A DNA stretch of 63,801 nucleotides, filler included, from Octopus bimaculoides (taxonomy: Eukaryota): assembly GCF_001194135.2 (NCBI RefSeq). It is 7 parts of 7 records of this genome, joined end to end, with 100 filler letters (N's around TTAATTAATTAA, not from the genome) between each part and the next. Parts side by side here need not be neighbours in the genome. Positions count along the whole stretch, not along the records: positions 1 to 15,433 come from NC_068987.1; positions 15,534 to 30,981 come from NC_069009.1; positions 31,082 to 49,421 come from NC_068996.1; positions 49,522 to 56,615 come from NC_069010.1; 3 more parts are not named here. The stretch is one strand, 5' to 3'. How positions within the stretch are numbered: the stretch's first letter is position 1; every line of letters starts with the position of its first letter. The notes under the pieces are model-generated. The model was not told the origin of the DNA. It ran no database searches and saw only the letters and a list, made by a program, of their open reading frames with translations. The position numbers and the translations under genes were made by a program. Below, in pieces: positions 2,282 to 52,933 of this stretch.

Positions 2282-2365
2282 GACCCTGATGAAGCTGCAC
2301 CGATAATAATGCAAGGCTGCTTCTGCAACTATGAGTAGTCGGTGCAGTGGAAATACATGTAGGTC
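2282..2365 (+). ncRNA. Type I hammerhead ribozyme motif
   Basis: Stem I gacc/ggtc; CUGAUGA 2286-2292; 10-bp stem II gctgcaccga/tcggtgcagt; GAAA 2350-2353; palindromic tacatgta; GUA site 2359-2361. Confidence 0.75.
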
Positions 2366-2529
2366 ATTATAAGTTGTACAAAATTATAAAATAAAATTTT
2401 GTGGATGAACAAGTTTCCATACTCTTTATTATTAGTAATTTATATATATAACTATGGACCAAGATATTTGGCACATTGTTATACTCAAATAGACTAGTCT
2501 GCTACAGTAGAATTTATGCTGGTTCTGGT

Positions 2530-2690
2530 GTCACATAAAAAGCATGGTGCTAGTGCCACATTAAAAACACGGGTGCCACTTAAAAAGCACCCAGTACACT
2601 CCGAAATGGTTGGTGTTAGGAAGAGCATCCAGCCATAGAAACCATGCCAGAACAGACAATGGAGTCTGGTATGGCCACTGGCTTCAAGGC
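2530..2690 (+). mobile_element. RTE 3'-UTR fragment
   Basis: aaaaagcacccagtacactccgaaatggttggtgttaggaagagcatccagc matches 33110-33170. Confidence 0.65.
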
Positions 2691-2824
2691 TTCAGTCTCC
2701 TTGCCTTGACATTGCATGATAGTATTAAGTGAAGGTCACCATCATGTAAGCAGTGCCTGCTTGTATGACGGTGACATTCATTTACAACCACCATGCTATG
2801 TCAAGGAGGCAATAACACATACAT

Positions 2825-2950
2825 ATATTGTGGTAAGAAGTTTGCTTTCCAACCACATGTACCAGGTTCAATCCCACTACATGGCACCCTGGGCAAGTGT
2901 CTTCTGTCTTGGGCCAACCAAAGCTTTGAGAATGAATTTGGCAGACAAAG

Positions 2951-3002
<52 letters not shown>

Positions 3003-3075
3003 NNNNNNNNNNNNNNNNNNNNNNNNNNNNNNNNNNNNNNNNNNNNNNNNNNNNNNNNNNNNNNNNNNNNNNNNN

Positions 3076-3149
<74 letters not shown>

Positions 3150-3352
3150 CTTTGTGACTGTGTTTGTTCCTCAGCACTGCTTGACAACAGGTGTTCATGT
3201 GTTTAACTTAACATGTAACTAGCAGTTCAGCAATAAGAGTCCGATAGAATAAGTACAAGAATTAAAAAAGAAGTACTGGTCGATTCGGTCGACTAAAATT
3301 CTTCAGGGCAGTGCCCTGGTATATTGCAGTCTGATGACTGAAACAAGTAAAA
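2825..3352 (+). mobile_element. CORE-type SINE with non-RTE tail, internal (GT)n/(TA)n and gap
   Basis: gtggtaagaagtttgctttccaaccacatg head, ctgggcaagtgtcttct core, tail ending gactgaaacaagtaaaaga. Confidence 0.8.
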
Positions 3353-3369
3353 GATAATATATATACATA

Positions 3370-3728
3370 GGCGCAGGCCTGACTCTGTGGTAAGAAGCTT
3401 GCTTCCCAACCACATGGTTTCGGGTTCGGTCACACTGCGTAGCACCCTGGGCAAGTGTCTTCTATTAAAGCCTTGAGTGGATTTGGCAGACAGAAACCGA
3501 AAGAGGCCCGTCATATGCATATAAATATATATGTGTGTGTGTGTTTGTATCTGTTTGTCCCTCACCAACGCTTGACAACCGGTACTAGTGTGTTTACGTC
3601 CCCGTAACTTAGCGGTTCAGCAAAACAAAACCGATAAAATAAGTACTAGGCTTATAAAAAGTAAGTATTGGGGTCGATACATTCGACTGAAAATTCAAGG
3701 CAGTGCCCAGCATGGCCGCAGTCTAATA
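3370..3728 (+). mobile_element. CORE-type SINE, near full length
   Basis: ggcgcagg..gtggtaagaagcttgcttcccaaccacatggtttcgggttcgg head, core, tail to ccagcatggccgcagtctaat. Confidence 0.85.
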
Positions 3729-3730
3729 AC

Positions 3731-3763
<33 letters not shown>

Positions 3764-3831
3764 ATATATACACACACAAACGCATAGAGGTGCGACGAAC
3801 TTCAATTTCCAACAACGAAATCCACTCACAG

Positions 3832-3930
3832 AGCTTTTTGTTGGCCTAGGGTTGCAGGAGAAGATACTTGACTAAGGTGCTATGCAGTGGGAGTAACTCG
3901 AAACCATGTGGTTGGAAAGCAAACTTCTTA
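3832..3930 (-). mobile_element. CORE-type SINE 5' fragment
   Basis: Reverse complement of the head/core (tggtaagaagtttgctttccaaccacatggtttcg). Confidence 0.65.
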
Positions 3931-3999
3931 CCATACAACCAATTACATACAAACAAAAACACAAACATGCATAGACATACATATACACAAACACATGCA

Positions 4000-4105
4000 T
4001 ATCATTCACACATACACACATATGCATATCATACACACATATACACACATGCATATCATACACACATATACACACATGCATATCATACACACATGTACAC
4101 ACACA
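4000..4105. repeat. 24-bp minisatellite, about 4 copies
   Basis: catatacacacatgcatatcatac-type unit in tandem. Confidence 0.85.
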
Positions 4106-7100
4106 TGCCTATATACATAGACACACATACACGTACAACACACGAGAGCGTGTAAAAATCCCTTTTATATATATATGAAGCTTAACGCTTTTAAAAGTTC
4201 CAAAAGGGTAAAGGGGAACTTAATAGACATGATATTTATTGTTAGTAATGTGACATACATCAATGCATAAACGCAGTTTTCAGTGACAAATAAAGTCAGC
4301 GTTCGACGAAAACAAACCTGTACAGCACGGACAATAATCACGCCATCAATGCAAACACTACAACAGGGAACCTCTATGCGGCCTTTTGACTTGCTAGAGA
4401 TAGCAGCCAAATTTCAGTGAGCATCGGGAAATGATGAGACGGTCGTAGCTAGGATGTCTTACATCATAGTCTGCTCAGTCAGAGTAAACAACAGTTACAA
4501 CCGGAGACCCAATACATGGTCACTCTACCTGCTAGAAATAGCAATCAAAAGGACACCATCGTCGTAGAGAGCTTTCCCAATGCACAAGAAGACTGGATGG
4601 CCACAACTTGAAAGCTTTTGAACTCCATTAGCCCCCATCCAGAACTTAACTACAGCGCGCCATCGAAGTAGCCTTAACGTAGTCACTGGCCCTGCTAGAA
4701 AACTACACCTTAACATAATCCAGTGCGTTCTTGGATTATTTAATCTGGATTACACAATTCAAAAAAAAAAAAATACATGTAATGATCATATCTCGAACGT
4801 GTTTCATAATAAAAAAAATAAACTTGCTGTCAGGGCCGACTTGGAGCCAAAATCGAAACAACTTATTAGGAAAGATTTATNNNNNNNNNNTTATTGGGGT
4901 TGCAAAGCTTTCTAGAAAGAAATATTAGCCAAATCTTCAGATTTAAACCAAAGAAGGGCAAGACTTCCGCCCGTCAAACTCAGGTTGGGGGGGGGGGGTA
5001 AAAACAGGTCTGTCCTGGCTGGAACGCCTTTGATCATATTCAGAGAGGAAAAAAAAAACCCATCCTTTCTTAGTCGACGTAGGATGGGTCTGACTTCCCC
5101 ACAGAAAGTACAATAAATTTTGACGACCAAACGCATTTTGGACGTAGTTACGTTCATGCTTTTCCCCGGATGCCATTTCCGAGACACTTTTTATTAATTT
5201 TTGTTCGTTTTACAAATTACAAGATTAGTTGGTTGTTTTGTTGTTTTTTTTAGAAAAGTAGATAGACACATTGATTATAAATGAATCGAAATTTCCCCCC
5301 CAACTGCACCAGTATTTATCCTATCACCTTCAATAGAATGAGGTAGTGAAGTAGCGAATTTGATATTGCAAAACATCTGGTTCGATTAATCGACACAAAG
5401 AATAATGATTTCTGATTTGTGCATAAGGTTAAACAATTTTGCGGGGAAAGGAGTTAGTACTTGACTGATAAGTACTTCATTCCATCGACCCCGTAAGTCG
5501 AAGTTAACCTCGGCGGGTCGGTGACAAATACACCGACATTACAAGGACAGGTTACAAAAAAAGTCTACGTGAGGATGGTTACATTAAAATCGGATGATTG
5601 TAAAGGGGAGGAGTGGTAACAACGGTATAAACATGTGTGATTGAGTCTCAAGACAAGAAAACCCCTTCAATAACAGGATCACGGATAGAAATTTTCAGGA
5701 TTGTAGGCTGAACCACAAATACTCGACTGCTTATATCTTTTATCAACCACCCAGGTTTGAACTCAGAACGTACAAGGACGAAATACTGACCATCGCATCT
5801 CCCTCTCTTTCTGCTTGTTTCTGTGATACATCGTCCTCAGAAATATGATTTATCACATCGACACATGTATAAGGGCAACTGGCATAGAAAATTGAATTGA
5901 CTCCTCGGCATTTACTCAAACTCATACTATCGACCTCCAGTGCGATGAGAGGCAAACTAACAACAACTATAATGAACATCTAAGTCTGAGCATCACTACC
6001 CTACCAAAGAAAGAAAAGAGAGATAAAACTATGTTCGAGACATCGGTGGACTGAAAAACTACGGGCGGGAATGGAAACCGGATTGTGAATGCAGTCGTCT
6101 AAATGATACAGTACAATATGGTTGAGAGAAAGAGAGAGAGGAGACAAATAAAACAAAGACATAATGTCATGAATAAAGAAGAGAGATTTACTTACAATGT
6201 GTGTCTCCTGTTTTGGAGGTTGCTGTTTTATGTATAACACATTGAGGGACAACGAAATATACATCTGGTGTCAGTGAGGTGGAGGGACAGAGAGATTAGG
6301 AGGAGAGAGGGAGAGAGAGAGAAGCGAATGGTAGTAGTAGAGGGAGATAGAGGAGAAAAGAGAAAGAGAGAAGAGGATGGGTGAGAACGAGAGTGTATGT
6401 ATGAGTGGGTAGGTAGGTGCAAATGAATGTGTGTGTGTGTGTGTGTGTGTGTGTTTTAACACACATACACGATGAAGAGTTAAAACGATATGGTTGGAAT
6501 CATCTGGGTCGTGTTTCGGCTGAATGACATGCACAATTTTGCACTTTTACAAATGTACACACTTCGGTGTGCGCATGTATGTATATATATATATATACAT
6601 ACATGCACACAGAAATATATATATATATATATATATACGCAAACACTTGAACGCAAGGTTAATATAATGTCGGTGTTGGAGAAGGGCAGGCGGAAGAACG
6701 TCAAAGAAGTTGGCATGGACTGACAAACCCTAAAATGCGGTGGTGAAGAGTGGAATCATACATTAGAGGTTTGGGGGAATGACACAGCCTATTAACAGAC
6801 TGACAGAGAGCAACAATAGGGAAGTTGATGGAGACTAGACACGGAATAAAAATAATCACAACGGACAGACAGTGTCTATAGTGGTCAGGTTTCAGTAAAG
6901 GGATGTCTCCGTGCTTGCTGTCTCGGACTATAGTGGACAGCTGGTCAGGTCCAGTTTTCCCTGCAATAGCCTTGAAGTGGACATCGACTGAAGTTAGCTA
7001 TTACAGTGGATAGTCAATAATAATCATGTCATGATAGAGAAACTATAAAACTAGAAGAGAAATTAGGAATGCTACTGTCAGGTGTAAAATCTGTATGAAG

Positions 7101-7713
7101 CATTAAATCATTGGAGTGTGACCGATATGGAGACAACGAAATAAATCTTGGTCAGAATGTTAACATATATATATATAACAATGTGCTGTTAGATGCATCA
7201 CGCTTTGGTTAAAAGTACAGCAAAACCATGGGTTTTATCGGTAGTGAACAGTGTATGTGTGAACGAAACGACAGTATGACAGAGAAACCATAAATATGGT
7301 TGACAAAAAAAAAAACTGAAAACAGTATTTAGACATATGTTGAATGTCGACTGATGGCTGCTCCTCCACCAGTGTAATTTAGAAGTCGGTTGCACAACAA
7401 GAGCATACGACAACAGTCCCAAGACAATAGCTAGCTGACCGTTAGCTTTGAACACATCGCTTTTATTTTCCGTCGTCGTGTCACCAGCATCATAACATTA
7501 GCATCGGTTTGTCCCCGCTGACCATATTGTCATCGATGTCCACTTGACTCTTCTCTATGGAAACTACACAGCATTTCCAGAACTATCGGTGATCATAAAT
7601 CGTGATAAAACTGATAGAGGCTGAATTAAAGCCAAACGGAGTGTATATTCTATGTATTGCAGAAAATGAGTTTTTATGTATGATGTGTGTACGCTTGTTT
7701 GTTTGTGTGTGTG

Positions 7714-7757
<44 letters not shown>

Positions 7758-10120
7758 TAGATAAATGTACGAAGCGTGAATGAAATGTGTGCAAATGCAT
7801 GACAGCGTGTATACACGAACAATGTACATAGCATACACAGCATATGAGAGCATGTTAAGAAAATATACATACGTATGATGCTATGGAAATAACTTTAATA
7901 ACAACGATACAATGTGACAAGGCCATTTCTTTCGGTTGATGAAGCGTAACGTTTGTTTAAACCGACTGGTACATATCTTAAATTTTCATAGAAAATAACT
8001 ATAAAATAGTAATGATATAAAGACAAACGAAAAGTTTTGTTGAAATTTTTCTTGTGGTTCTATCATTTTAAAACACATTTAGACATTTATGGTAATAATC
8101 TATTTTAGACAAAATTCGGTTCTCCGTAATAAAGCATGCCGTGTCGTTCAGACGTTCTGTAACATAATTAAGCTTAGTAAACTAATTGAACAAACAATAG
8201 CTTTTACATATAGGTAAAAAAAAAAATACTTCAAATTTATAAGTAAACCGAAAGACTAGTTTGGAATTTAATACGTCCAATACTTCAGATAAACTTCGCA
8301 TTTCCACTAATTGCTTTATTTAAGGGGTAGTAGAATACTTTCTCATTAAATGTGTGTAAAAATACTAATATCTTTCCGTAGGTCTTGTTAATTTTAAGTG
8401 ACGAAAAACTTTTCGTTGTAATTACTTGTTATTCAATATAATTAATAACATTATCCAAAACAAAAACAAAAAAAAAAACTATTTTCCATCATTCGGATCA
8501 ACCACAAAAATGTCTCATGCACTATATCTAATTTCACTTTTAAAAGATTCTCTAACAAATATATCGAAGGGATGTTCAACAATTTGAACATTTTAATTTT
8601 TTCTTTTTAATGTAAATTTTACAAACAGGGTACTGAATGAAGCTCGACAATCTAACTGAATTTATAGGAATTTAGGTGTTTATTCTAATGTTGAAGTGGC
8701 GAGGGGGGGGGGCTACTTTCAAAGAAAAACGTATTATGGTACATAACCGATCAGCCATAACATGTACAGGACCACAGGGGAAATGGAAATAGAGAGTGGG
8801 AAGTTGGGATGTACATGCGTTGCTTTTCTTTATTCGACTCTGCCATAGCCGTTTGTCATGGTTATGCTTCAATGAATGAGAGCGGTCACAGTTGAGTTAT
8901 ACGAACTCACTTGTCTTACCGGTATTTCTCCGTTACGGTTGTTTTTGTTTAGCCCAAGGCAAACTTCATCGGGCAGACTTATGATTAACTACAATTCCAA
9001 CCATTGCCATCCTAAGTATTACTATTTCTCTTCTTTTTTTTTTTTTTGTTTCAAGAAAAGTGTAGTAGTGTACAATGAACATTCAACAAACCAAACCAAG
9101 GTGTCCCCCTTTTAAAACAGTAGAATTAATTCGCTGCTGTTTTCAACAGACTGACCAACCATGCATGGTAGGTCGGTAAGTTGGAGGAAGCTGATAAAAA
9201 GACTACCACGACTTGGACAGGAATCGAACTCGAACGCATTGAAACAGAATACATATATATACACAGATTATTAAAATATATAACAAAATAAAAATAATAA
9301 TCGCTTATTTATTCATATATATATATATATATAAATATATATATATATCATAAACAGGTACCCAGGTCACACAATTGGCAAGGGTTCTGGTTGCCGTTAG
9401 CTAAAGAAAAAAAAAACTGCACAACATGTCTGGTACTTTTAACTTATCACCCTCCACTTCACACACACAAAAAAAGGGGCTTCAGGAGACTGATGTAACT
9501 TTACCTAAGCTCAGAAGGCGAAAAAGGGAGGGCATGAACATCATGCAATCCCAAAAATAACAGCCACGGAGAGAGTATAAATCACGTATATATGCAAAAT
9601 ACAAGAAAAAAAACATACATACATTTTAAATACACAAACATTTATATTAACACTCATATACACACATAGATTGATATAATATTAACACGCGCGCATACAC
9701 GTATTTTGATTATACATACTTCGAGGCGAGACAGATAAGAACATATATTTGCATATCTTCATGGAGGGATTTTCTTCAGGGAAACTACGTTCTTTCCAGT
9801 GTTGCATGACATGCATATATAATACAATATATACATATATATATATATATACATACATATATATACACGTCTACTGCAAAGGATTTTCTCTTAAATAGCT
9901 GTTTACCCGGTTCCGCACATACTTACATATATTATACATACACACACACACACTTTAGAATATTGAGCAATAGATACTTTAAAAGATGTGAAGTATATAC
10001 ACACAATCTGTTATATACATATATATATATATATATATACAACCACATATACGTGTATGCTTTTTTTTACTGGCGTTAGTCATTAGACCATACTGGAGCA
10101 CACACACATTATATATACAC

Positions 10121-10166
<46 letters not shown>

Positions 10167-10789
10167 TTTAACCTGGCGTGGCGGTATTTAACAGCCAATG
10201 CTGGAGAAATAACGAACAATATTGAAGATGAAATGAAATAACATAATATAGATAGATAGATAGATAATACATAAAACATGTTGACTCACAATTGAAAATA
10301 TTATCTTTAGTAGTAGTTGTAGTATTATTTGTAGTTGTCGTAGTAGTAGTAGTAGTCTGTATTCGGTGAGAAGTAGTAGTAGTGGTAATAATAGTTGTAG
10401 TAGTAGTAATAATAATAATAATTAACTGAAACGACGATGAAGATATAGAAGTGAAAGCACAGCGGCGGCGGTTGTAGTAATAATAATAATACAGAGAAAT
10501 ATAGACCAAAATATATTATATGTGGATATATTTATAAAGCCCTGTCTTTTTCAAAAGATTCAAAGCTGTCTTTTTTGTTTTTTCCTAAATTAATGTTGTT
10601 TTCTCTAAGAGTTGTTATCGTGAGGGTTTTTTTTTTAAATAAACTCGTCAAGGTGGAGTTAGAAACATGGAACAGAGAGAAACAGACCACCGGCCCACGT
10701 GACCGACTCACTGCAGCAGCATCAGCAGCAGCAGTACAATCCTCCCCCCTCTTACCGCCTATCTCCCCTTCGTCGTCGTCGCTACCACC

Positions 10790-10970
10790 TACACCGCCAC
10801 AACCTGCATTGTTTCTTCTCCTCCCCTTCTCTGTTCACCCCGATCCCCAACCTCCCACCGTCGCCACCACCACTTGCATTGTTTCTCCTTCTACCCCACC
10901 TCTCTGTTTCCCCCTGTCTCCACTCTCCGCCACCACTCCCACCTGCATTGTTTCTTCTCCCTTTCTTTGT
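10790..10970. repeat. Three spaced copies of cacctgcattgtttcttctcc in a C/T-rich tract
   Basis: Copies near 10800, 10870 and 10940. Confidence 0.7.
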
Positions 10971-11789
10971 TTCCACCACCGACAACAACAACAGCAACAA
11001 CAAACGTGGAATCTCTGTGGTTGGTTGGTCGATCTGCTAAGAATAGTAGCCAAAATATCCTTCAAATTCACTGACAAGCCTACAAGGACACATTTGATAA
11101 ATATAGTCTTACATACCCTTAAAAAAGACCGGATGGTCACGATTGGAACGTATTTGATCTGTAGGTTTTCAACAATCAATGCATTCCTAGGGCTAAACAA
11201 TAGCAACTCTTCCATTCTCCGTTTCCACCCTTACCATCGCCTTCGTCACCCCACCATTACGTTGCTTCTTCCCCCTCCATTTCACCCCCTCATCCTATCT
11301 TCGTCGCCACCACTAATATTGCTACCTCTTTCCCCTTCTCTACTTTCCTCCGTCGTCACCATCATTTCTCTCCTTGTAGCCTCTACCACTACTATCATCA
11401 CCACTACTATCACCACCACCATGACAACTACTCGCATTGTGTCGTTATGCTTCAATCTCTTCCTCCTTCACTGCTTCTGTCTCTCTCTTTCTTTCATACA
11501 CATTCTCTGTGTCTTTCTCTTCATAGACATTCGCATTCTCTTTCCTTCTCTCTATCATTACTTCACCCTCTTTGTTCCTTTCCCCCTCGCACACATTTTA
11601 TTCTCTTTCTTTTTCACATACATTCTTAGTCTCTTTCCCTCTCTTTCTCATTATCTCACCTCTTTCACTTTCTCTTCACACGCTTTCATTCTCTCTTTCT
11701 TTCTATTTAACATTCTCTCACCTTTTCTCTATATTTTCCTCTTCGTCGTATTTGCAGTTATTGAAAGCGAGAGACAAGACTAGAAATGC

Positions 11790-12420
11790 TTGAGAGGGTG
11801 TTATACTAATAATGGTAGCGGTGGTAGTGCACTGCTGTCAGTGTTACTAGCAGTATTCAGGTGTTAGTGCATTGTAGTTGATGGTGGTAACAGTGCTATG
11901 TTGCAGTCAGTGTTGTAGTTGGTGTTGGTAGCGGTGTTAGTGATAGTGGTGATGACAATGTTACGTTACCAGTGGTGCTAGTACTGCGAATACTGCTGGT
12001 GATGATGATGGTATGTTGTGTTACAGTCGGTGTTGGTGTTGGTGGTGGTACTTAGGTGTTTCTTATTACTGTGGTAGTGGTTTTAGATTACTTATTGGTG
12101 TTATGGTAGTGGAGACTGTGGTGGTATCATTAAAGTGACGCTGATAGTGCGTTATGCTGTTGCTTATGGTAGTGTGTACGTGTGGGAGAGAGGTAATGTT
12201 GGTGGCGCTTCTATTGTGTCAGTCGCGGTGCTATGCTGTTTGCGTGATCGTTCTATGACTGATAGGGGTGGTGGTGATGGCATCGTGACGGTATTAGTGG
12301 TATTTTAATATGGTTGTTGATGTTGCTTATCATCATTGTTGCGGTGGCGGTGGTGGTGGTGACATCAGCATCAATGTTACACGGTTGATATTCATAGTGG
12401 TGATGGTGTTACGCTAGAAT
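11790..12420. repeat. Degenerate (GGT/GAT/TAG)n low-complexity tract
   Basis: Continuous decayed trinucleotide repeats. Confidence 0.75.
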
Positions 12421-12494
12421 AAAAAAAATATGAAAATGATATATCAGTTCTTTCTATTATAAGTATAAGGACTGACATTTTGGAAGAGAGGGTT

Positions 12495-12662
12495 TGTGGA
12501 TTTAATCGACTCCAGTGCTTAAATGAATTCTATTTTGTCGACCTCGAAAGAAATGAAAGGCAAAGTCAACGTTGGAAGAATTTGAACGCAGAACGTAAAG
12601 ACGGATGAAATGCCGCTAAGCATTTTATCCGGCGTGTAACGATTATAACAGCTCACCGCCTT
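12495..12662 (-). mobile_element. Second tRNA-derived SINE family (gactttgcctttcatcc domain)
   Basis: Reverse complement of the intact copy at 60690-60900. Confidence 0.75.
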
Positions 12663-14779: not shown

Positions 14780-14961
14780 CTACTCAAGGCACAAAGTCCG
14801 AAATTTTGGGGGAGGGGGCTAGTCGATTAGATCGACCAGTATGCAACTGGTACTTAATTTATCGACCCCGAAAGGATGAAAGGCAAAGTCGACCTCGGCG
14901 GAATTTGAACTCAGAAACGTAAAGACAGGCGAAATACCGCTAGGCATTTCGCCCGGCGTGC
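14780..14961 (-). mobile_element. Second SINE family copy, low divergence
   Basis: atcgaccccgaaaggatgaaaggcaaagtcgacctcggcggaatttgaactcagaa. Confidence 0.85.
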
Positions 14962-16415: not shown

Positions 16416-16660
16416 TACGTATCTATCACATATATATATATATATAGGTTGTCCCTTTACTATCACCACTAGATAAGAAACAATAGAATTCTGAGACAGT
16501 TAAAACTTTTGTCTAGAATCAATTACTAGCCTGATAGACCCCGCTATGTGAAGATGGACTTATATATTCTTCCTCACATTTGGATTTTATATGCTCTCTC
16601 CCACTTTATATGCTCTCTCCCACATAATATGTCTTTTTTCTACATTTTCTACATTTTTCG

Positions 16661-16749
16661 TGCAGCTGAAGATTGCTCTTCATATTGCATTTAAGGTAAT
16701 GCTCACATTACTTAAATAAATTGAAGTAGCATGAAACGTGCGTACTGCA
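16661..16749 (+). ncRNA. Type I hammerhead ribozyme motif with long stem II
   Basis: Stem I tgcag/ctgca; CUGAAGA 16666-16672; extended stem II; GAAA 16733-16736; stem III acg/cgt; GUA 16742-16744. Confidence 0.8.
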
Positions 16750-16854
16750 ATCACTTTTGAAATCCGTGTTGCTTATTATTTGATTTTAATCACCCATCCT
16801 TTTGGGATGCGATATTCGGGTGCCTTCGCATAAGTACCATATTCAAACCTTGAA

Positions 16855-16893
<39 letters not shown>

Positions 16894-25685: not shown

Positions 25686-25850
25686 TGCAACGAATTCCTG
25701 GTTTGTTACCTGTCATTTTGTTGTGAATGGTAATATTCCTAAAATAATAGGTTAAATATAAACCTTAGTTTATAAATATTTAAATTAAAATTCAGAAAAT
25801 GGAGAAACAGCGTTTATAAAATTTATTAAAGGGAAAAATTTAACCTGTTT

Positions 25851-25932
25851 ACTTACAGCTGTTTCGGTTTTACCCAAACAATTAAATTCCGGAAGTTAAA
25901 CGATATTTATTGGGCAAATTCTCGTGAGATGA
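25851..25932 (-). ncRNA. Degenerate hammerhead motif (core CUCACGA)
   Basis: Minus strand: ctcacga..tttgcccaa/ttgggtaaa helix..GAAA-cagctGUA; same ACAGCUGU palindrome as 45988-46070. Confidence 0.5.
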
Positions 25933-26174
25933 ATAAAAAAGACATGTCCTTAGGTCATTACATATTATTTTATCCAAAGCATCTTTGGAAGAATAATATG
26001 TAATAACCTAAGGATATGTCCTTTTTACTCCTCTGAGGAACCGCTAAGTTACGGGGACGAAAACACACCATCATCGGTTCTCAGGCGATGTTGGGGACAA
26101 ACACAGACACAAACATATACACACAATCACGCACACATACATACACACATATATATAAACATATTTAACATGTT

Positions 26175-31497: not shown

Positions 31498-32031
31498 TAT
31501 TAACAACAATATCGTGTATGGCACTTGAAATGATGATGTTGGAGTTTCATCGCAATTTTGGAGAGAATATATAAGCAATACGCTGTGACTATTTACAAAA
31601 ATAGTTCAAAGGTTGCAGTTTTAACACCATTTATTTTCAGTCACTACAATTGTTTCTACACAACATGAATGAATATGTAGCGGATAAGGATATACGTGAA
31701 CAAAGGTTATCTTAAGGCAACAACGAGGAAGATGAAACTATTAAAATTGTATTTACATGTTGACATGGTAATGAAATAGACAGAATAATGAAAAGAACTA
31801 ATAAGGGGTTTATGATTTGCACAGAAATAGAAGAGTAAATGAATGAGGTTGAAAAGACAAAATTTCTTATCTGAGCATCTTCTGAGATTCGTATTCTTCA
31901 GCATACATATGTAGATACATACATCCATGTATACTAGACACATAGACAGACATGCATACAAACATATAGCAATACAACCAGACCTACACATGCATGGATA
32001 GGGGGAAGGGGAGAGGAAGAGAGTTCACTGA

Positions 32032-41559: not shown

Positions 41560-42771
41560 GCTTATATGGGACTAATAATATCATAAGATGTGAAAGGTAG
41601 CTCCTTGAGCAACATTCTTTGTCTGATAACCTAGAATACATGTCCAAAGAAGTCGCACGACTCTACCACAACGTATCATCAGATGAAAGGATGAGCCTAT
41701 ATGAGCAGAAGACTCTGCATGGATATGTTAGTAGAAAACTCCATGATGATAGTAACACCGATCATCAAAGCAGTTTATCATGGACCAATAGCCGGATTAC
41801 TACCTCCCACTTTTGTAATCCAGGAATAAGAAATATCAACCAAGTACCTGATGCACAAAAGGGACAGAGATGCAGGAAAAGCAGTAAAATGTGACAACTG
41901 ATGCAGACATTATAGAATTCACTCCAAAGATATCACACACATCATAATCAGTTGTCCAAAAATGTCGTCACAACATTATCTACCGATGAGACGTGATGCG
42001 GTAGTTAGGACACCCTATAATGAAATCCATTGGAAGGATAACCCCAAGGACAAAGAAATAAGATCCACAGTATAGTAGAAGCCATAGCCACTCATGATAA
42101 AAAGGAGTACTGGTGGAATTTCCTCAATAAAATGTAAGCACAATAGACCTGGTATAATGATTTGGAATAGAGAAGAGAAACTGTACACAGTTGTGGAAAT
42201 TAGCTGTCCAGCAGATGTTAACATAAAGCTGAAGATCAGTGAAAAAGAGAACACCTATGCTGAACTATGGAGTAATCTGCTGTTACTTTATCTGGATTAC
42301 AAGTTCAAGTTTATACCTGTAATTATTGGGTCCTTGGAATATGTAACACACTGCCTAAATACCAATCTTGAGAAAATAGGCTTCTCAAAACTAGAAAAGA
42401 GAAAGCTAATTCGAAGACTACAGATTCAATCCATCACTGGCACTGTTAAAATCTGTAAAACTTTCCAGAAGTTTATCATTTAAATATATATGAGAAACAT
42501 TCGAGCAAGGTCATTGCCAGTGACGCTAGACTCGCTCCTGTGCAGGTGGCATGGAAAAAACACCATTTGAGCGTGGCCATTGCCAGTACCGCCTGACTGG
42601 CACGTAAAAGCACCCACTACACTTTCGGAGTGGTTGGCGTTAGGAAGGGCATCCAGCTGTAGAAATTCTGCCAAATCAGATAGGAGCCTGGTGTAGCCAT
42701 CTGGATCACCAGTCCTCAGTTAAATCGTCCAACCCATGCTAGCATGCTAGCATGGAAAGCAAACGTTAAAC

Positions 42772-43857: not shown

Positions 43858-44084
43858 GGTAATTTTTCAGATTAACACTCACACAATTTTCACAAGGATT
43901 TTAGGGTTAGGGTTTTAGGGTTACAGTTACGGTTAGGGTTTAAGGTTAGGGTTACGGTTATGGTTAGGGTGTTAGGGTTAGGGTTTTAGGATTACGGTTA
44001 GGGAATTCCGTCCCTAACCCTAACCGTAACCCTAACCATAACACCCTAGTGAAGATCGTGCGAGTGTTAATCTGAAAATTTACC
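43858..44084. mobile_element. Merlin-type MITE containing inverted telomeric-like arrays
   Basis: ~38-bp TIRs GGTAA..ttcac / gtgaa..TTACC; 8-bp flanks gatgagag/aatgagag; (TTAGGG)-like then (CCCTAA)-like interior. Confidence 0.75.
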
Positions 44085-44782: not shown

Positions 44783-45604
44783 CTATATACATAAATGTGT
44801 AATGGTGTTTGTTTGTATGTATGTTTGGGATTACACTAACTCCTCCCACACCATCCAACCAACTTTAATGATTTTTGGCACATAGGTAGATCACATGCCT
44901 TAGAGTTCAAATAGAGTTCAAATTTGTAGTCCTCTTCCACAAGGGAGGTTCCGTTGAAAATTTTGTTAAAAAGTTTGCCAGGAAGGGTCAGATGAGAGGG
45001 ATCCTCACCTGTACCAAGGACCCTAGTTGGCCTCTGCAGGTGACTGTGGAGGTCGTGTGGGAGATAGACTTGTGCAGGGTGATGAATTCCTTCCCCAAAG
45101 ACACATTCCTCTTCTTACTGAAGTTGCCCGATGAAGAACCAGCGAGGTGCTTAAGTGAAGCACGGAGTCTGGTCGGGCGGTATAATGTAAGAGGACGAGT
45201 GCCTCATATTGAAAGGGCTTGTGGCCCATAAAAAGAAAAGTGTAAGAGGCAAGTGACTCATTACAAAGACATGATAAATTGAAACTGCAAAGTAAGAGGT
45301 TTATAGCCTCACATTGTAAATTTATGTATAAATTTATAAAAGAACAATAATTTAGAGAAGCAGAGTTCGGCGGGCGGCTCTTGTCTTCTCCCATTAATAC
45401 CATATTAATCATCATTCATCTCATCTCATTAATGCGTTTGTCCAGCCCGTAGCTACTCCTCTGTGTACTGCCTTTATGGAAAATTGAATGAAATAAAGTA
45501 GCTTGCTTACCAATGACATGGTTCCAGGTTCTGTCCCACTGTGTGGCACCTGGGGCAAGTATATATATATTATCTGAATTTTATAGTATTAAATATCCAT
45601 TGTA

Positions 45605-45694
45605 GCTAATCTTACCAATCAGTTTCACATAAAGAATTCCAAGGAGTGTTGGGTAACAATCCAATTATATAACTTTACGCTCATCAGAGACAGC
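45605..45694 (-). ncRNA. Type I hammerhead ribozyme motif
   Basis: CUGAUGA (plus tcatcag 45681-45687); stem II gcgtaaag/ctttatgt; GAAA 45623-45626; stem III acu/ggu; GUA 45613-45615; stem I gctgtct/agattagc with one bulge. Confidence 0.78.
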
Positions 45695-45886
45695 CGCTAT
45701 GGAAGGAAATATGGTGACTGCTCTCTATTGTCAGGGGTGGTATAGCACAACCAGTCAGTAGCTGGTATGAAAAAAGTGGTAAAACAAAAAAGGGTCCAGG
45801 GGATTGGGTTAGGAGTTATGTCCCATTCTACTGACGGATATATGAGTGCATCTTCTCCCTGACTTATGGTCTCTTAGACAACTTAC

Positions 45887-45925
<39 letters not shown>

Positions 45926-45987
45926 AATAAGAAAATGGAGATTGTTAAGTTAATAAGAGTTTATTGTCAACAACAAATTGGTCATTA

Positions 45988-46070
45988 TCCCTTACAGCTG
46001 TTTCAATTATACATAGTGAAATTAGTTAAGTATTAAGTTCATATTTCTGAGCATAATCTCTTCAGAAGGA
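45988..46070 (-). ncRNA. Type I hammerhead ribozyme motif
   Basis: Stem I tcctt/aggga; CUGAAGA 46059-46065; 8-bp stem II gattatgc/gtataatt; GAAA 46001-46004; palindrome ACAGCUGU; GUA 45993-45995. Confidence 0.82.
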
Positions 46071-48629
46071 AAAATATACCCTTAGATGTTTTGTACGTTT
46101 GTTTGTAGATTTATCACAGCAGACTGAATGATACTGTTTATGATTTATACTTATATGTGTTTGGGCAAGGGGTCTGTGTCACTCAAATGGAGAAATACAG
46201 TATATCCAAGATGGCTACAAGAAGTCCAAGATGGGAAAATGGGCTGCTATTGGTCAAGATGGGTCACATGATGTTATTAGAAATGAGATCATCATTTTAA
46301 TGACACCTGTTGCATTAGAAAAGAGAATTTCTTGGACCACATGGCTGCACAGGAAGCTGGTGATGCCTTGGTGTCTGGGGGACCTTTGTAGGTACTTGGA
46401 AGCTGACAGAAGCAAGGCCAGTGTGTGTGTATGTGTGTGTGTGTGTGTACCAGATGTATGAGTGTGTGTGTTATTGATTGTATGATTGTGTGCATGTGAA
46501 TATATGTGCATTAGTGTCTGCTGTATACACATGTGTAAACATGTTTAGAATACATGTATGGGTGTGTGCATAAGTATGTACGTTCTTACAATTGTGTATA
46601 AATATATGAGTGCATGTGTGTTTGTCTGAAAGAACAAATATACAAATGTGCACGTGTTTTTGTCCAGTATGTGCATGTGTATATATATATGTGCATGCTT
46701 TTGGTATTTATATGTGCAGGTGTGATAGATGTATGCTAGTGTCATTGCAACAGCATTGCTGGTAGGGGGGATGAAAAGGTGATGAACTGTTTCGTGGGAG
46801 GGAGGAAAGACTGATGTATACACACTTAGATGTATGTGTGTGTGAATAGATGTTTGTGTATATAGATGTGTGTGTGTGTGTGCACATGTGCATGTGTGTG
46901 TGTGTGCACATGTGCATGTGTGTGTGTGTGCGTGTATTTGTATATGCACACCATGTTTATGGAAGTGAATGTATGGGAGTTACAGGAGATATATAAGAAC
47001 ATGGGGTTAGCCAGCAGTCTGCATAGGCATTGGTGGTTAAGAACTCTGTTTTTAGTTGTGGGGTAGCCAGTGGGGTGCCAAAAAGTTCCAGGCTTTGTGT
47101 AAAAGAAAATACAGGAAGATCAATCAATCATGATTTTATACAACATATTCTTCTCTTGGATTCACAAGCTTATTGCAGCAGTCCTTCAGTTTTTCTAAGC
47201 CCTGTAAAAGAACTCAGAAGGTTGGGACTCCAGTTAGGCCTTTTGCGATATTTTTAAAGCTAGGAACTGTTCAGTACTGCCTCGTAACAAGGAAAACATG
47301 CTTGGAAGAGAATTCCAAAGAATTGGACATAATGGTTAAAATGGGAATTGAGAATGAGGTAGTGGACATAATACAGGGTGATCAAAGGAAAGAGTGACAG
47401 TAAGCCAGCCGTGTTTGATTGGATGTGATATGGGATCAGCTAGCACCAAGGAACAAAAGAGAAAAAGTGAAGGAAGTGCAGCAGAAAAGATAAAGCAAGG
47501 AGTCAACATTCTAAGTGCCAGAGACTGAAGTCAGTTGCTGAATTACATCATACTAATAAATAAGGTAGTAATTAAAGGCATGAGGTCTAAGTTCTCTGTT
47601 TGTATAGCAACAAATCTCTTCTATGTTTGTAAGTAATGTTTTATTATGGGTCTTCATAGATTTATTGATAGCTGAAGTATTTCTTGACCAAGAAGAGAAA
47701 GATTACTCTTTGGGATACAGTCTTTGCTAAGATGTATTCTACGGCTTTATAGAAGATACAGTCTTTAATGTTCTCAGTTTTTCTCTTGTCATTCACCATT
47801 ACAGCTAATATCTGTTCCTTCAAATGTTTTGTCTGCAGCATCCACCACTTGATTCCACCTAATTTACTTGTCATTCAATCCATTGTCTTGCCTTCCAGTT
47901 ATCACGCACATGTCTACTGGTGACCAATATATTATGGTCAACTGCATCAGCTGTTCAAACACACACACATAAATACACACAAATTTATATAAGCAGGAAC
48001 ACATACATATATACACACACACACACAGATACACTCACATGCACACAAAATCACACAAAGGTATGTGTGCATGCATGTATATGTACACATATTTGTTAGT
48101 AATGGTTGTAGCGGCGGTGGCGGTGGCGGCGGCGGTGGCGGTGGTGGTGGTGGTGGTGGTGGTGTTAGTGGAGTCGGTTGTTGTCGTCGTCATTGTCATC
48201 GTTTTATAGCAGTAATAATGGAAACGAGCCAAAGAGAGAAACTTTAAAGTGCGTACTGAAGTTGCTAGAAATAGCAGCTAAATCTCCCTCAGATCACTTA
48301 TCCAACCGATCAAACAATGNNNNNNNNNNNNNNNNNNNNNNNNNNNNNNNNNNNNNNNNNNNNNNNNNNNNNNNNNNNNNNNNNNNNNNNNNNNNNNNNN
48401 NNNNNNNNNNNNNNNNNNNNNNNNNNNNNNNNNNNNNNNNNNNNNNNNAATGCTGCTTTTGGAACATCTTTGGTCATAGGTCTGCTGGATGAGGTCATAG
48501 CTAGGACTTAATATCAACAATAACAACAACAATTACATAAGAAAATTTTCTCGTTCATGTTGCAGACAATTCAAACATTTCTATCTCCCTTTCTCTTGAT
48601 CTCCCTCTCTCTCTCTCTCTCTATCTATC

Positions 48630-48734: not shown

Positions 48735-49418
48735 TCATTTTCCTGAATTTCTGTTTCTCTTTTTTGTTTCATAATTTTGTTTGCATGAGTTGTCTGTTAG
48801 GTTATATGGGATTGGTTCGGGGGAATGGTAGTATTGTTGCCTTAGATTGTTATATGTGTGTGGGTGTCTATGAGTGTTTTGGTTAGTGATGTGTGTAACT
48901 CTAGTATGTGGGATGTTTCTTGATCTGGTGTTATTTTGTGTTGTTCTTGAGTTCGGTGGGGGCCAGTAATTTTGGGTCATAGGGTAGTAGTGACTAGCAT
49001 GTGGTGTGTTTCTTATCCTAGTGTTGTTTTGGGTTGTTATGGGGTGGTTATGCCTGGTATTGGGACCTTGTTGGTGTGTTCTGTTCCTGGTGTATGGGTG
49101 ATCTTGAGGTTTGGTGCAATCTATTTCATAAATGCGTTGTCGGAAAGCTTGTTCCATGTTTAGTTTTGGGTGGTTCAAAAGTGGTGGTTGTAAGTGATTT
49201 CTATTTATGGTGTATGGAGGGTAATGAGGAGGGTTGTTGTTGATTAAGTGGTTGAAATTGGTGGTGGTTTGTGCGTTGTTCAGTTTTTGTTTATTATTTA
49301 TAGTTCTTTTCTTTAGGAAAGGATTATCTGTGCTGAATTCTTGTTTAAAAGTTGATTCATATCTTTGGAAGAAATCATTGCTTTTTTCCCAGCGTAGGAG
49401 AGAGTTTCTTTCTTCCAT
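48735..49418 (-). other. 227-codon N/T/Q/H/P-rich ORF of unknown origin, abutting a gap
   Basis: Uninterrupted frame, but the strand is T-poor so stops are intrinsically rare; no motif recognised. Confidence 0.3.
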
Positions 49419-49521
49419 ATANNNNNNNNNNNNNNNNNNNNNNNNNNNNNNNNNNNNNNNNNNNNTTAATTAATTAANNNNNNNNNNNNNNNNNNNNNNN
49501 NNNNNNNNNNNNNNNNNNNNN

Positions 49522-49553: not shown

Positions 49554-49865
49554 CTAAAATTTATTAATAAGGGTAGAAATTGATATTAATCAATTAAAAC
49601 AAGTGGTCTAGCATATTAAAAAATCCGAAGATTAAAATTATATTACATACAAAAATAAGAGGAATGACCAGCAAAAGTGGACTCCTATATGCTAGAAATA
49701 GATGCCGAATCAGTCTGTTGTGTCGCTAATTTTTTACTGAGAACATATTTCTTCGTGGTTAGATGATTCGACATCTATTTCTAGCATATGGGAGTCCACT
49801 TTTGCTGGTCATTCCTCTTATTTTTGTATGTAATATAATTTTAATCTTCGGATTTTTTAATATGC

Positions 49866-49901
<36 letters not shown>

Positions 49902-49904
49902 CAT

Positions 49905-50420
49905 CTACCAAATCCACTCCTAAAGCTTTGATTGGCCCAGGGCTATAGTAGAAGACAATTGCCCAAGGTGTCATGCAGTGGGATTGAACACAAAACCAAA
50001 TGGTTGCAAAGCGATTTTCTTAACCATACATCCACGTCTGCACTTCTTTATATCTTCTACTTGTTTTACTCATTAGACTGTGGCCATGCTGGGGCACCAC
50101 CTTAGACAATTGACTTCAGTACATGTTTCTTTTTCAAACCTGGTATTTATTCTGTTAGTCTCTTTTGCCAGACTGCTAAGTTACAGGGATATAAACACAC
50201 TGACACCAGTTGTCAAACAATGGCAAGGGACAAACGCTGACACACACACACACGTACACACATACACACGATGGGCTTCTATCAGTTTCCATCTGTGAAA
50301 TCCACCCAAAAGGCTTTGGTTGACCCAATGCTATGGAAGAAGACACTTGCCCAAGGTGCTACACAGTGGGACTGAACCTAGAACCATGTGGTTGGGAAAC
50401 ACACTTCATACCACAGAGCC
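49905..50420 (-). mobile_element. Two adjacent CORE-type SINEs
   Basis: gaagacaattgcccaagg and gaagacacttgcccaagg cores with heads on the right. Confidence 0.8.
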
Positions 50421-50491
50421 TGTACCTATACATACACAAAAATACATTAACACACAAATTTACATTAACATAAAGAAATCTAATTTCTTAC

Positions 50492-50522
50492 CTTGAGATA
50501 TTTCTGAGAAGTGCTGTGTTGT
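50492..50522 (-). CDS. Candidate 31-bp micro-exon
   Basis: Strong AAG|GTAAGA donor but weak acceptor; (G)AC-NTALLRNIS-AG is phase-compatible with exon 56937-57121. Confidence 0.2.
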
Positions 50523-50553
50523 CTTTTACAATAAATATATGATTTATAAATAT

Positions 50554-50584
<31 letters not shown>

Positions 50585-51085
50585 GTAGATGTTTCTGCTG
50601 AGATAAATATTTATATAATATTATGTTTGATTATTATGCATATAATATTATATGATTCTGCTGAGATGAATATCTTTTATATAATATTACTTGTAATTGT
50701 TAGGATCTATAATATTATTTATGTTTCTGTTGAGGACAATCAGAACTGGCTTGGAATTCTGTTGGGTTGTTCTTGTCTTATGAAAGGTGTTTTTATGAAT
50801 GGATGAATGCTGTAGCCTTTATATATACATATGTAGCAGGACTAACTGTATAAGGCTTATATATATGTGTGTGTGTGTGTGTGTAAGTGTGTGTGTATTC
50901 CAGTTCCTATTGCACAACAAAGTCATACACTTAAATCTCATTTGTCAATCAGTATTGGTAAAATCCAATAATTTTATTTTTCATTCACAAAATTTCCATG
51001 TTGGTATCTACGTATTCCTGTTTCCTGATTCCGTGTGTTAAAGCATGGCTTTGATAAAAATACACTTCAATAAAAATAGATAAAT

Positions 51086-51117
<32 letters not shown>

Positions 51118-51444
51118 CCAACAGCAAATAAACATTTTGTGTACGTATCAGTATGTATGTGATTATGTGTTTATCTATATATCTAGATATCTATCAACCT
51201 ATTAGTCTATCTATTTATGTATTTATCTTCCTGTCTATCTACATATCTATCTGCCAATCTGTCTGTCTGTCTATCTATCTATTGAGCTATTTGTCTACCC
51301 ATCAATTTTTCTGTGTATGTATGCATGTATGTATATATGTATCTATCTATCTTTCTCTCTATCTATTTCTTTATCTATCTACCTATCTATTTATTTATCA
51401 ATATATATATGTGCATTTGTCTATCAGTATACGCACAAACACAT

Positions 51445-51485
<41 letters not shown>

Positions 51486-51648
51486 GCATGCATGTACACA
51501 CCAAACAAGGATTCTAATCCTAACATGACAACATGGAAATTTTATGAATGCCTTGCAAAGCTATTTTTACTCTATAATTGTATCTTATCCATAAGCAGAC
51601 CAATGATATTTAAGTGTCATTATTGATACATTATTTTTACATCATATC

Positions 51649-51682
<34 letters not shown>

Positions 51683-51693
51683 TTGTGTGTGTA

Positions 51694-52107
51694 CAGGTTG
51701 CGTTGGGTAAACTGTTACCATTCTATATTTTTAATTTTGCACATGTACGTTGTTTGTTTATGATTTTGTCGACTACACAGTATAGTAGGGTCAGATGGGT
51801 ACTGTCTGTCAAAAAAACAGCACTATGATGCAATTCACCCTGCCAGAAATTTGGAAATGACATACTGTATTGCTTGACATTCACACTGGAAGCTCCAATA
51901 TGAACATTTCAGAGAGTTTGGGTGTCAATCTGAGGACAGTGCAAAGGATTCGGAAAGAGATGGATGAGTCTAATGGTGATTATGATGGTATGGCAGCTCA
52001 GAAAACTCATTCTGATAAGAAAAGAACTCCTCAATTTGTTGGTGAGAATCAGGCCTTGATTGACAACGACCCCTCCAAGTCAATCAGGTCCATTGCCAGG
52101 GACATGT
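51694..52107 (+). mobile_element. Tc1/mariner 5' part (TIR plus HTH region)
   Basis: TA-CAGGTTGCGTTGGGTAA terminus; ISESLGVNLRTVQRIRKE HTH-like segment; aligns with 28290-28458 (-). Confidence 0.85.
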
Positions 52108-52895
52108 AAACAAGATTAATATTAATAAATTATAAGGAAACAATTATAAAAAAGTTATATAAAAAGAAATCCTTATGCATTNNNNNNNNNNNNNNNNNNN
52201 NNNNNNNNNNNNNNNNNNNNNNNNNNNNNNNNNNNNNNNNNNNNNNNNNNNNNNNNNNNNNNNNNNNNNNNNNNNNNNNNNNNNNNNNNNNNNNNNNNTA
52301 TATAACTAGCTGATTTACCTGGTAATTCCCGGAAAAGCAGGGCTTATCTCTTGGTTCCATTCTTATAATTGTTTCGCTAATCCAAAAACATCAATACAAG
52401 GTGTGTAGCCCTTAAAACGGTTTTTGTGCATTTACAGAGAATACTGAAGTGTTTTACACAGGATCTTGTCTTTAGGAATTCCCAATAAGTTATGAATACC
52501 CAAATTTTGAAGTCAGTTATGTAATAGCAGGAAATTAGTCACCTGGTTGTAAGAATTCAAATAAAGTAGCCCCGAAAAGGGCTTTAATGCGTTCCCTGGG
52601 TATATAAACATAGAAGGAAATACTAATAAGGTATGTATGCGAAAATCGTGAAGCATGTTATGTAATCAGATATGAGATAATAACAATTCAGAGTAAATAA
52701 CTCTGAAAAGGGCTTTTGTGTTCCCAGAGAATATTACCCTCAGTGGTGCTAGTGTTGGTATATTCGTGAATAAGTCACTAACCAAATTAAGTGGATCTAT
52801 TGCTTCTTACCACACAGCCACTCCTCGGCATTCGCCATGATAGATCGCTGACCACTACATTTATATTTTTTTTTCTCTTTGTTTCTTTCTGTGTT

Positions 52896-52933
52896 CCTTT
52901 CTAACGAAGAGCGTAGGCTCGAAACGTCAAAGA
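52896..52933 (+). ncRNA. Minimal type I hammerhead motif with G5A core change
   Basis: cttt-CUAACGA-a-gagc(gtag)gctc-GAAA-c-GUC-aaag; palindromic ACGU stem III; followed by a T-rich segment and (TA)n. Confidence 0.65.

What the first reader, a model, noticed from the sequence alone, without database searches (positions are those of the whole stretch)
2282..52933. Seven type I hammerhead-ribozyme motifs in short, ORF-less, (TA)n-associated elements
Seen: CUGANGA-stem II-GAAA-short or palindromic stem III-GUH-stem I at 2282, 16661, 20079 and 52896 (+) and at 25851, 45605 and 45988 (-). Helix sequences are mostly unrelated between copies, so several families are present. Most elements end at (TA)n tracts and some have AATAAA downstream. 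Established: minimal type I hammerheads with palindromic stem III, proposed to act as dimers, occur in Penelope-like element pseudo-LTRs and metazoan non-LTR retrozymes. Inference: this genome carries multiple families of ribozyme-bearing non-autonomous retroelements that favour TA microsatellites. No Penelope RT or GIY-YIG ORF was recognised in the window, so mobilisation would be in trans.
Basis: partly seen in the sequence, partly recalled or inferred. Interest (0 to 1): 0.85.

Follow-up and report, generated by a model that had tools for sequence, protein, structure and literature searches.

The report
Long-armed hammerheads on Penelope-like stumps
Several scattered repeats in this animal DNA carry the letters of a self-cutting 'hammerhead' RNA with one arm two to five times longer than in most published animal examples; they are likely the leftover tail ends of Penelope-like jumping genes, a known pairing, and cutting has not been tested.

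Summary
Partly confirmed. Four of the seven sites (2282, 16661, 45605, 45988) are intact type I hammerhead motifs; 0 of 100 shuffles gave any. Site 52896 is a minimal hammerhead with a core substitution, 25851 is decayed, 20079 is unsupported. Their helix II domain is 54-60 nt, against 12-26 nt in published Hydra-clade Penelope hammerheads, and Rfam misses them. Three families tested against sequencing runs are multi-copy; family-majority letters restore stem I and lengthen helix II, and the stem III palindrome is kept through a double change. Related copies show fold-backs, 60-70 nt optional tails and ends in (TA)n, the insertion marks of Penelope-like elements. Best reading: 5'-truncated 3' ends of Penelope-like retrotransposons, most like the (TA)n-targeting Hydra clade. 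No link to a Penelope ORF, no tandem unit, no RNA circle and no cleavage was shown, so 'non-autonomous, mobilised in trans' is unproven. The scan noted long-stem-II hammerheads before in another genome (e1-9545524).

The parts
2282..2365 (+). Intact type I hammerhead motif: stem I 2282-2285/2362-2365, core 2286-2292, 57-nt helix II domain with 11-bp basal stem, imperfect palindromic stem III 2353-2360, predicted cut after A2361; lies between short TA tracts
   Evidence: copy number not tested
16446..16857 (+). 5'-truncated copy of a very abundant repeat, (TA)n on both sides; the family has two 3' ends (about 16780 and about 16855) and continues upstream of 16449
16661..16749 (+). Intact type I hammerhead motif: stem I 5 bp, core 16666-16672, 60-nt helix II domain opening with U.U, palindromic stem III 16736-16743, predicted cut after A16744
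20079..20121 (+). Core letters only; helix II does not form; decayed remnant or chance
25848..25933 (-). Decayed long-helix-II hammerhead (core CUCACGA at 25928-25922, 56-nt domain II, stem III ACAGCUGU as in the 45988 motif, shared downstream AATAAA and TCTCCATTTTCT)
25927..26034 (.). Fold-back directly upstream of the 25851 motif (84% self-complementary, apex about 25980); the mirror arm reads CTGAGGA at 26033 and abuts a SINE-like repeat
31640..31721 (-).
45565..45828 (-). Sense body of a multi-copy repeat ending in (TA)n
45605..45695 (-). Intact type I hammerhead motif: core 45687-45681, 54-nt helix II domain, 10-nt palindromic stem III, predicted cut after A45613
45829..45890 (+). Inferred 3' tail of the same family, placed inverted at the 5' end of this copy; in other copies it is joined to the 3' end at 45565-45569
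   Evidence: joints table and depth step; geometry inferred from the 58-letter short side
45925..46155 (-). Multi-copy repeat ending in (TA)16; other copies show fold-back joints 46065-46074 to 46119-46125
45988..46070 (-). Intact type I hammerhead motif: core 46065-46059, 54-nt helix II domain, perfect palindrome ACAGCUGU, predicted cut after A45993
52897..52932 (+). Minimal Penelope-type hammerhead (extra A after the core, 4-bp helix II, ACGU stem III, GUC) with G5 replaced by A; (TA)n 94 nt downstream
   Evidence: consensus in PMC4209133 Fig. S3

Best explanation
Four intact and three decayed type I hammerhead motifs sit in short repeats, at least three of them multi-copy, that are likely the 5'-truncated 3' ends of Penelope-like retrotransposons, probably of a (TA)n-targeting clade such as Hydra, with an unusually long helix II. 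Mechanism: the parent element's GIY-YIG nuclease would cut at a (TA)n tract; its reverse transcriptase would start inside the RNA at one of two sites 35-110 nt past the ribozyme (giving an optional 60-70 nt tail), copy a few hundred bases and stop, sometimes primed from both DNA strands so that an inverted piece is left at the 5' end. In the parent's tandem or read-through RNA two hammerheads would pair through the palindromic stem III and cut after GUA, possibly helped by the element's protein. The single copies in this window are predicted to be mostly inactive fossils. Shown: motifs, multi-copy status of three families, structure-preserving variation, fold-backs, alternative 3' ends, (TA)n association. 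Inferred: Penelope parentage, clade, priming model, dimer cleavage.
For: Motifs exceed chance; 30 sequence-only pattern matches in viral and metagenome contigs all lack stem I (0-1 bp), so the stems are the signal; tens of diverged contigs cover both minus-strand motifs (e.g. 99 contigs carry the other letter at 45691, 48 at 46067 in X1); majority letters at 45691 (96% of depth) and 46067 (80%) turn G.U pairs of stem I into Watson-Crick pairs; majority letters improve helix II from -10.7 to -16.6 kcal/mol (45687) and -4.9 to -11.7 (46065), reached by 0.3% and 0.6% of 1500 random substitution sets; the 16661 family has summed contig depth near 10^6 in organism A and is present in organism B; no common variant listed in the core; loose-end consensus reads show stem III as ACGATCGT (X1) and ACGTACGT (X14), both perfect palindromes. 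Stem III cannot form a hairpin alone but duplexes with itself at -5.0 to -11.1 kcal/mol in the six long motifs. Inverted 5' copies, tails and 5' truncation are listed as PLE hallmarks in PMC8557442 section 6; two internal start sites explain the tail in PMC11167929. Hydra-clade hammerheads share U.U or G.U at the base of helix II, ACAG..CTGT-type stem III and (TA)n targets, and one family is described from Octopus bimaculoides (PMC8557442 Files S1, S2).
Against: No Penelope RT or GIY-YIG found in the window (254 frames against Pfam; motif scan), and no genome was available to link a family to an ORF. Hydra-clade helix II domains are 12-26 nt, and the published Hydra-1_Obim motif is absent here; six short window motifs were not found in that paper's consensus files. 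Tails here are 60-70 nt against 30-40 bp in print. Three fold-back joints of the 45988 family cluster at 46119-46125, which could mark a defined short unit. The commonest helix II variant of the 16661 family (16680 T>A) weakens the predicted stem (-17.0 to -12.5), and the isolated 16661 motif prefers a non-hammerhead fold. Only three of the families were tested for copy number.
Confidence: 0.68

Rival explanations
1. The repeats are dedicated non-autonomous elements (solo copies of non-LTR retrozymes or short pLTR-derived units) that are transcribed, self-cleaved, possibly circularised and reinserted by a Penelope enzyme in trans.
For: No ORF near any motif; very high abundance of the 16661 family and RNA reads over it; clustered 5' joints in the 45988 family; retrozymes are reported as pLTR derivatives with many monomer copies (bioRxiv 10.64898/2026.07.22.740005); mussel units are 300-400 nt (PMC7229834).
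Against: No tandem unit containing a hammerhead in the window; 3' loose ends run into (TA)n, not into a unit start; none of the 5 joints for the 16661 stretch, nor the 15 of 31 shown for the 45430-46400 stretch, is a head-to-tail joint at a cut site; 5' ends vary in the 45605 family; canonical loop 1-loop 2 architecture of retrozyme hammerheads is not evident.
Confidence: 0.22
2. The motifs are tails of Naiad elements, whose hammerhead halves were reported far apart and so missed.
For: Naiads target (TA)n, are remnants in cephalopods, and eight were marked 'HHR_half_core' with halves 35-50 nt apart, including Naiad_Ovul (PMC8557442).
Against: The published Naiad_Obim and Naiad_Ovul 3' ends have GAAA before CUGAUGA and, by eye, do not resemble the window motifs.
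Confidence: 0.05
3. The motifs are chance matches in AT-rich, repeat-rich DNA.
For: Descriptor was tuned after the fact; Rfam finds no hammerhead; whole-motif folding z-scores are weak for 6 of 8. Plausible for 20079 alone.
Against: 0 of 100 shuffles; long pattern 4 against mean 0.50, reached by 1 of 400 shuffles even without stems; family letters restore pairs.
Confidence: 0.02

Closest known systems
Hammerheads of Hydra-clade Penelope-like elements (Craig et al. 2021, PMC8557442, Files S1-S2)
   Same: Type I; U.U or G.U at the base of helix II; extended self-complementary stem III; cut after GUA; near the 3' end; (TA)n targets; a family known in Octopus bimaculoides.
   Different: Helix II domain 54-60 nt here against 12-26 nt; no ORF link shown; not the published Hydra-1_Obim motif. 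A 54-nt domain II is listed once in that file, in the spike-moss element PLE-X1_sMoe, flagged as deviating.
Minimal PLE hammerheads (Cervera and de la Pena 2014, PMC4209133)
   Same: Site 52896 fits the consensus CUGANGAH-G..C-GAAAN-palindrome-NUH apart from one core letter; mostly single dispersed copies; dimer model.
   Different: The four intact motifs lack the extra base and the G10.1-C11.1 pair and have a helix II domain at least twice the longest (about 23 nt) in the part of Fig. S3 that I saw.
Metazoan non-LTR retrozymes (PMC7229834; bioRxiv 10.64898/2026.07.22.740005)
   Same: Short, non-coding, type I hammerhead, low GC, dispersed monomers occur.
   Different: No tandem units, no circles shown, no canonical 4-bp helix II with loop-loop contact; fold-backs and tails instead.
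PAc (Poseidon, Anolis) hammerhead (Frangieh et al. 2024, PMC11167929)
   Same: Two internal RT start sites giving an optional tail; AT-rich targets; no RNA-seq ends at the cut site.
   Different: Different clade; tail here is longer; protein assistance untested here.

Membership tests
Type I hammerhead ribozyme | CUGANGA ... GAAA ... NUH core with helices I-III, helix I open | tested here: met
   4 of 7 sites exact; 52896 and 25851 have core substitutions; 20079 lacks helix II
Type I hammerhead ribozyme | Structure-preserving variation among copies | tested here: met
   Stem I, helix II and stem III in three families; from per-site tables, not a full alignment; one 16661 variant weakens helix II
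Type I hammerhead ribozyme | Match to an Rfam hammerhead model | tested here: not met
   No hammerhead among the 150 of 250 rows shown, nor in local searches of three sites
Type I hammerhead ribozyme | Self-cleavage | not testable with these tools
   RNA runs show no pile-up of ends at cut sites, but fragment libraries at about 6% sampling cannot show one
EN+ Penelope-like elements | RT plus GIY-YIG ORF linked to the repeat | tested here: inconclusive
   None in the window; genome not available; truncated copies need none
EN+ Penelope-like elements | Inverted 5'-truncated copy at the 5' end | tested here: met
   Fold-back 25927-26034; opposite-strand joints in three families
EN+ Penelope-like elements | Optional 3' tail at one end | tested here: met
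   Two 3' ends about 70 nt apart; inverted 60-nt tail at 45829-45890 (inferred); longer than the published 30-40 bp
EN+ Penelope-like elements | Partial tandem (pLTR) arrangement | tested here: inconclusive
   Not seen in the window; only short stretches were laid
Hydra clade | RT phylogeny, RWK/DKT motifs, EN without CCHH | not testable with these tools
   No linked ORF recovered
Hydra clade | (TA)n insertion preference | tested here: met
   5 of 7; loose ends into (TA)n; shared with Neptune and Naiad, so not diagnostic
Hydra clade | Canonical-size hammerhead (helix II domain 12-26 nt) | tested here: not met
   54-60 nt against File S2
Non-LTR retrozymes | Head-to-tail repeats each with a hammerhead | tested here: not met
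   None in the window and no such joint shown; arrays elsewhere in the genome not excluded
Non-LTR retrozymes | Unit-length linear and circular RNA | tested here: inconclusive
   No junction at a cut site in three RNA runs sampled at about 6%

The most novel reading that the evidence does not exclude
A widespread, undescribed class of long-helix-II hammerheads marks one or more unrecognised Penelope lineages (or their non-autonomous offspring) that reach very high copy number in this genome and are invisible to Rfam and to standard short descriptors; the 55-60 nt arm, similar in length across unrelated families, is a functional module, for example a binding site through which the element's own protein switches on dimer cleavage.
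Probability: 0.3. Interest if true: 0.62.

Novelty: new variant of a known kind. Interest (0 to 1): 0.4.

Why it matters
The role of hammerheads in Penelope-like elements is an open question (PMC8557442 calls it unclear; PMC11167929 found cleavage protein-assisted and dispensable in vitro). Unrelated families that keep a helix II domain of nearly the same length give a natural test of whether that arm has a job. Ribozyme counts in such genomes made with short descriptors would be underestimates. The association itself (hammerheads in Penelope ends near TA repeats) is known.

Tried and rejected
No whole genome is held, so no genome-wide descriptor run. Rfam: only microsatellite-driven noise. 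Pattern scans for long motifs: 9 viral and 21 metagenome loci, all with stem I of 0-1 bp, rejected as chance. Pfam on 150 frames of 70-442 aa (from 544 frames of 45 aa or more; 16 microsatellite-rich ones skipped) and on 104 frames of 32-69 aa upstream of the motifs: only an RVT_1/PHD frame at 37601-38233 and an HTH at 51861, neither beside a hammerhead; the remaining short frames were not scanned. ORF 48738-49421 as a Penelope fragment: no Atlas hit, low recognition score. MAFFT alignments of the motifs misaligned the cores; model R1 was built on the poor alignment and not used. No RNA holder listed by the run search. The two motifs at 45605 and 45988 as a 380-nt retrozyme monomer: rejected, since they are different families with non-matching stem III, separated by (TA)16. 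Searches for a printed account of this variant ('hammerhead'+'Neptune'+'Penelope-like'+'stem II'; 'extended stem II'/'long helix II'/'large loop 2'; octopus terms) found none; 'long helix II' in PMC13725137 means 6-8 bp. File 1 of the PMC4209133 supplements and all bioRxiv supplements could not be read and may hold longer examples; Repbase and subscription papers were not searchable.
Full report
Observation. The window is AT-rich animal DNA full of microsatellites and SINE-like repeats. Earlier scan notes call this genome an octopus; I did not test that. No whole genome is held. Reading the seven sites and applying a descriptor (exact CUGANGA, closed helix II, GAAA-Y-palindrome-G-U-H, stem I) gives four intact motifs, cores at 2286+, 16666+, 46065- and 45687-, against none in 100 shuffles made in 500-nt blocks; one core mismatch adds 52901+ (null mean 0.09) and the loosest setting adds 31716- (null mean 0.38). 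The descriptor was shaped after seeing the sites. 25851 fails on core (CUCACGA) and stem I; 20079 fails on helix II and folds worse than the shuffle mean. As an outside control, 30 contigs that match the sequence pattern alone all have stem I of 0-1 bp. Rfam shows no hammerhead in the 150 of 250 rows listed for the window or in three local searches.

The stretch between CUGANGA and GAAA is 57, 60, 54 and 54 nt in the intact motifs and 56 and 53 nt in the decayed 25851 and 31716 motifs. It folds as one long interrupted hairpin in five of six (mononucleotide-shuffle z -3.8, -4.7, -0.6, -1.9, -2.8; 31716 does not fold). The first pair is A.G, U.U, G.U or G.U rather than G-C. Stem III is 8-10 nt, forms no hairpin alone, and self-duplexes at -5.0 to -11.1 kcal/mol. 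Only 52896 is a minimal motif, matching the consensus in PMC4209133 Fig. S3 except for G5 replaced by A, which I recall as inactivating.

Families. Laying runs on 45430-46400 at 80% likeness shows two separate multi-copy repeats, about 45565-45890 and 45925-46155, with summed contig depth of 20,000-45,000 and 6,000-24,000 over the motifs against 250-3,100 in the upstream flank (X1). The tool warns that depth is no copy number. Of 267 differences only 40 were shown. Among them, majority letters at 45691 and 46067 convert stem I G.U pairs into Watson-Crick pairs, and those inside helix II improve its predicted energy more than 99% of random substitution sets. On 16446-16858 summed depth exceeds 10^6 in X1 and reaches 7.7x10^5 in a second organism (X14), where the upstream part is poorly covered. 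Common variants at 16695 and 16705 fall on a bulge and a loop and leave the energy unchanged; 16680 T>A weakens it (-17.0 to -12.5), which goes against a strictly kept helix. Loose-end consensus reads give stem III as ACGATCGT and ACGTACGT, a double change that keeps the palindrome. The 2282, 20079, 25851, 31716 and 52896 sites were not tested for copy number; 25851 shares stem III and downstream motifs with 45988.

Insertion marks. Five of seven sites have (TA)4+ within 113 nt downstream. The 16661 family has two 3' ends into (TA)n about 70 nt apart and continues upstream of the window copy (39 and 18 RNA reads with 0.97-0.99 agreement before 16449; 16 contigs at 16459). In the 45605 family, contigs join 45565-45569 to 45822-45829 on opposite strands; the 58-letter short side equals the distance to the masked repeat at 45880, so I infer that 45829-45890 is a 3' tail sitting inverted at the 5' end of the window copy. 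The 45988 family shows fold-back joints at 46065-46074 to 46119-46125, and the 25851 copy has a 108-nt fold-back just upstream. Strong 5' truncation, inverted 5' copies and an optional tail are the listed structural marks of PLE insertions (PMC8557442 section 6), and the tail matches two internal RT start sites in vitro (PMC11167929, parts 1-2 of 4 read). Priming from both DNA strands is my inference, by analogy with twin priming in L1 (recalled).

Coding sequence. No Penelope RT or GIY-YIG in 150 long frames and 104 short frames upstream of the motifs, nor by motif scan. The one RT (37601-38233, RVT_1 E 5.9e-15, with PHD) is about 6 kb from the nearest motif and looks like a LINE (label recalled). 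So the elements are ORF-less here, but that does not show non-autonomy.

RNA. Three 2026 RNA runs, each read at about 6%, have reads over the families on both strands in similar numbers (up to about 310-fold over the 16661 motif in X21), nearly all from other copies. No pile-up of ends at a cut site and no circular joint there; the only end clusters are at 16846 and 16858, at the edge of the stretch. These libraries cannot show such ends well, and PMC11167929 also found none for an active element, so this is neutral.

Comparison. Hydra-clade PLE hammerheads (PMC8557442 File S2, table read; section 11) are the closest: U.U or G.U at the base of helix II, ACAG..CTGT-type stem III, GUA cut sites, (TA)n targets, and Hydra-1_Obim from octopus. 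Their helix II domains are 12-26 nt by my count; one spike-moss element in the same table has 54 nt and is flagged as deviating. The published Hydra-1_Obim motif is not in the window and the octopus Naiad 3' ends have a different strand order. The Hydra lead came from earlier finding e1-9545524, which reported long-stem-II hammerheads in another genome; I checked the table myself. Of PMC4209133 I read parts 1-2 of 4 and part 2 of 3 of supplement 2; of PMC7229834, PMC13282606 and PMC13725137 passages only; of the 2026 bioRxiv preprint part 1 of 5 and passages. PMC13282606 lists 30 recently active Penelope families in Octopus vulgaris and does not mention ribozymes in its main text. Four literature searches found no description of a 55-60 nt helix II in animal PLE hammerheads.

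Verdict. The motifs are real at four sites, decayed at two (plus one new), doubtful at one. They work like PLE dimer hammerheads and most likely are stumps of Penelope-like elements (0.68); dedicated retrozyme-like units remain possible (0.22). Membership in the Hydra clade is not established. The association is known; the long helix II kept across unrelated families is a new variant worth a modest score.

Noticed in passing
window 53050-53282: Fold-back (84%) beside (TA)n whose two arms each carry GAAATATGTC after a hairpin, i.e. a hammerhead 3' half with no CUGANGA found upstream.
   Followed up: partly
window 58490-59177: Complex direct-plus-inverted repeat (58659-58832 against 59012-59177, 81%) with GAAACGTC/GAAACGTT and a TTAC/GTAA stem but no core; PLE-like layout.
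   Followed up: partly
window 49612-49864 and 53917-54099: Two more fold-backs (86%, 83%) next to TA/TATC microsatellites, no hammerhead core recognised.
   Followed up: partly
window 21550-21596 (+): Short hammerhead-like motif CTGATGA..GAAACACATGTC with a 6-bp stem I bearing one mismatch and no helix II; same ACAT loop as the 2282 motif.
   Followed up: partly
window 36947-38466 (-): Broken LINE-type RT (RVT_1 E 5.9e-15) followed by a PHD finger.
   Followed up: no
window 41601-42480 (+): Frames resembling the C-terminal restriction-like endonuclease region of R2/R4-type retrotransposons (KHNRP..I motif; resemblance recalled, no Pfam hit).
   Followed up: no
window 48738-49421 (-): 228-aa N/H/P/T-rich open frame starting at an assembly gap; no Pfam or Atlas hit.
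   Followed up: partly
window 43858-44084 and 57221-57410: Interstitial degenerate TTAGGG arrays; the first is arranged head-to-head inside an inverted repeat.
   Followed up: no
window 52474-52734: Diverged 141-nt tandem pair (68%) with a small hairpin, about 160 nt upstream of the 52896 motif.
   Followed up: no
window 27866-28400, 51861-52106: Tc1/mariner-like transposase fragments (HTH hit at 51861; label recalled).
   Followed up: no
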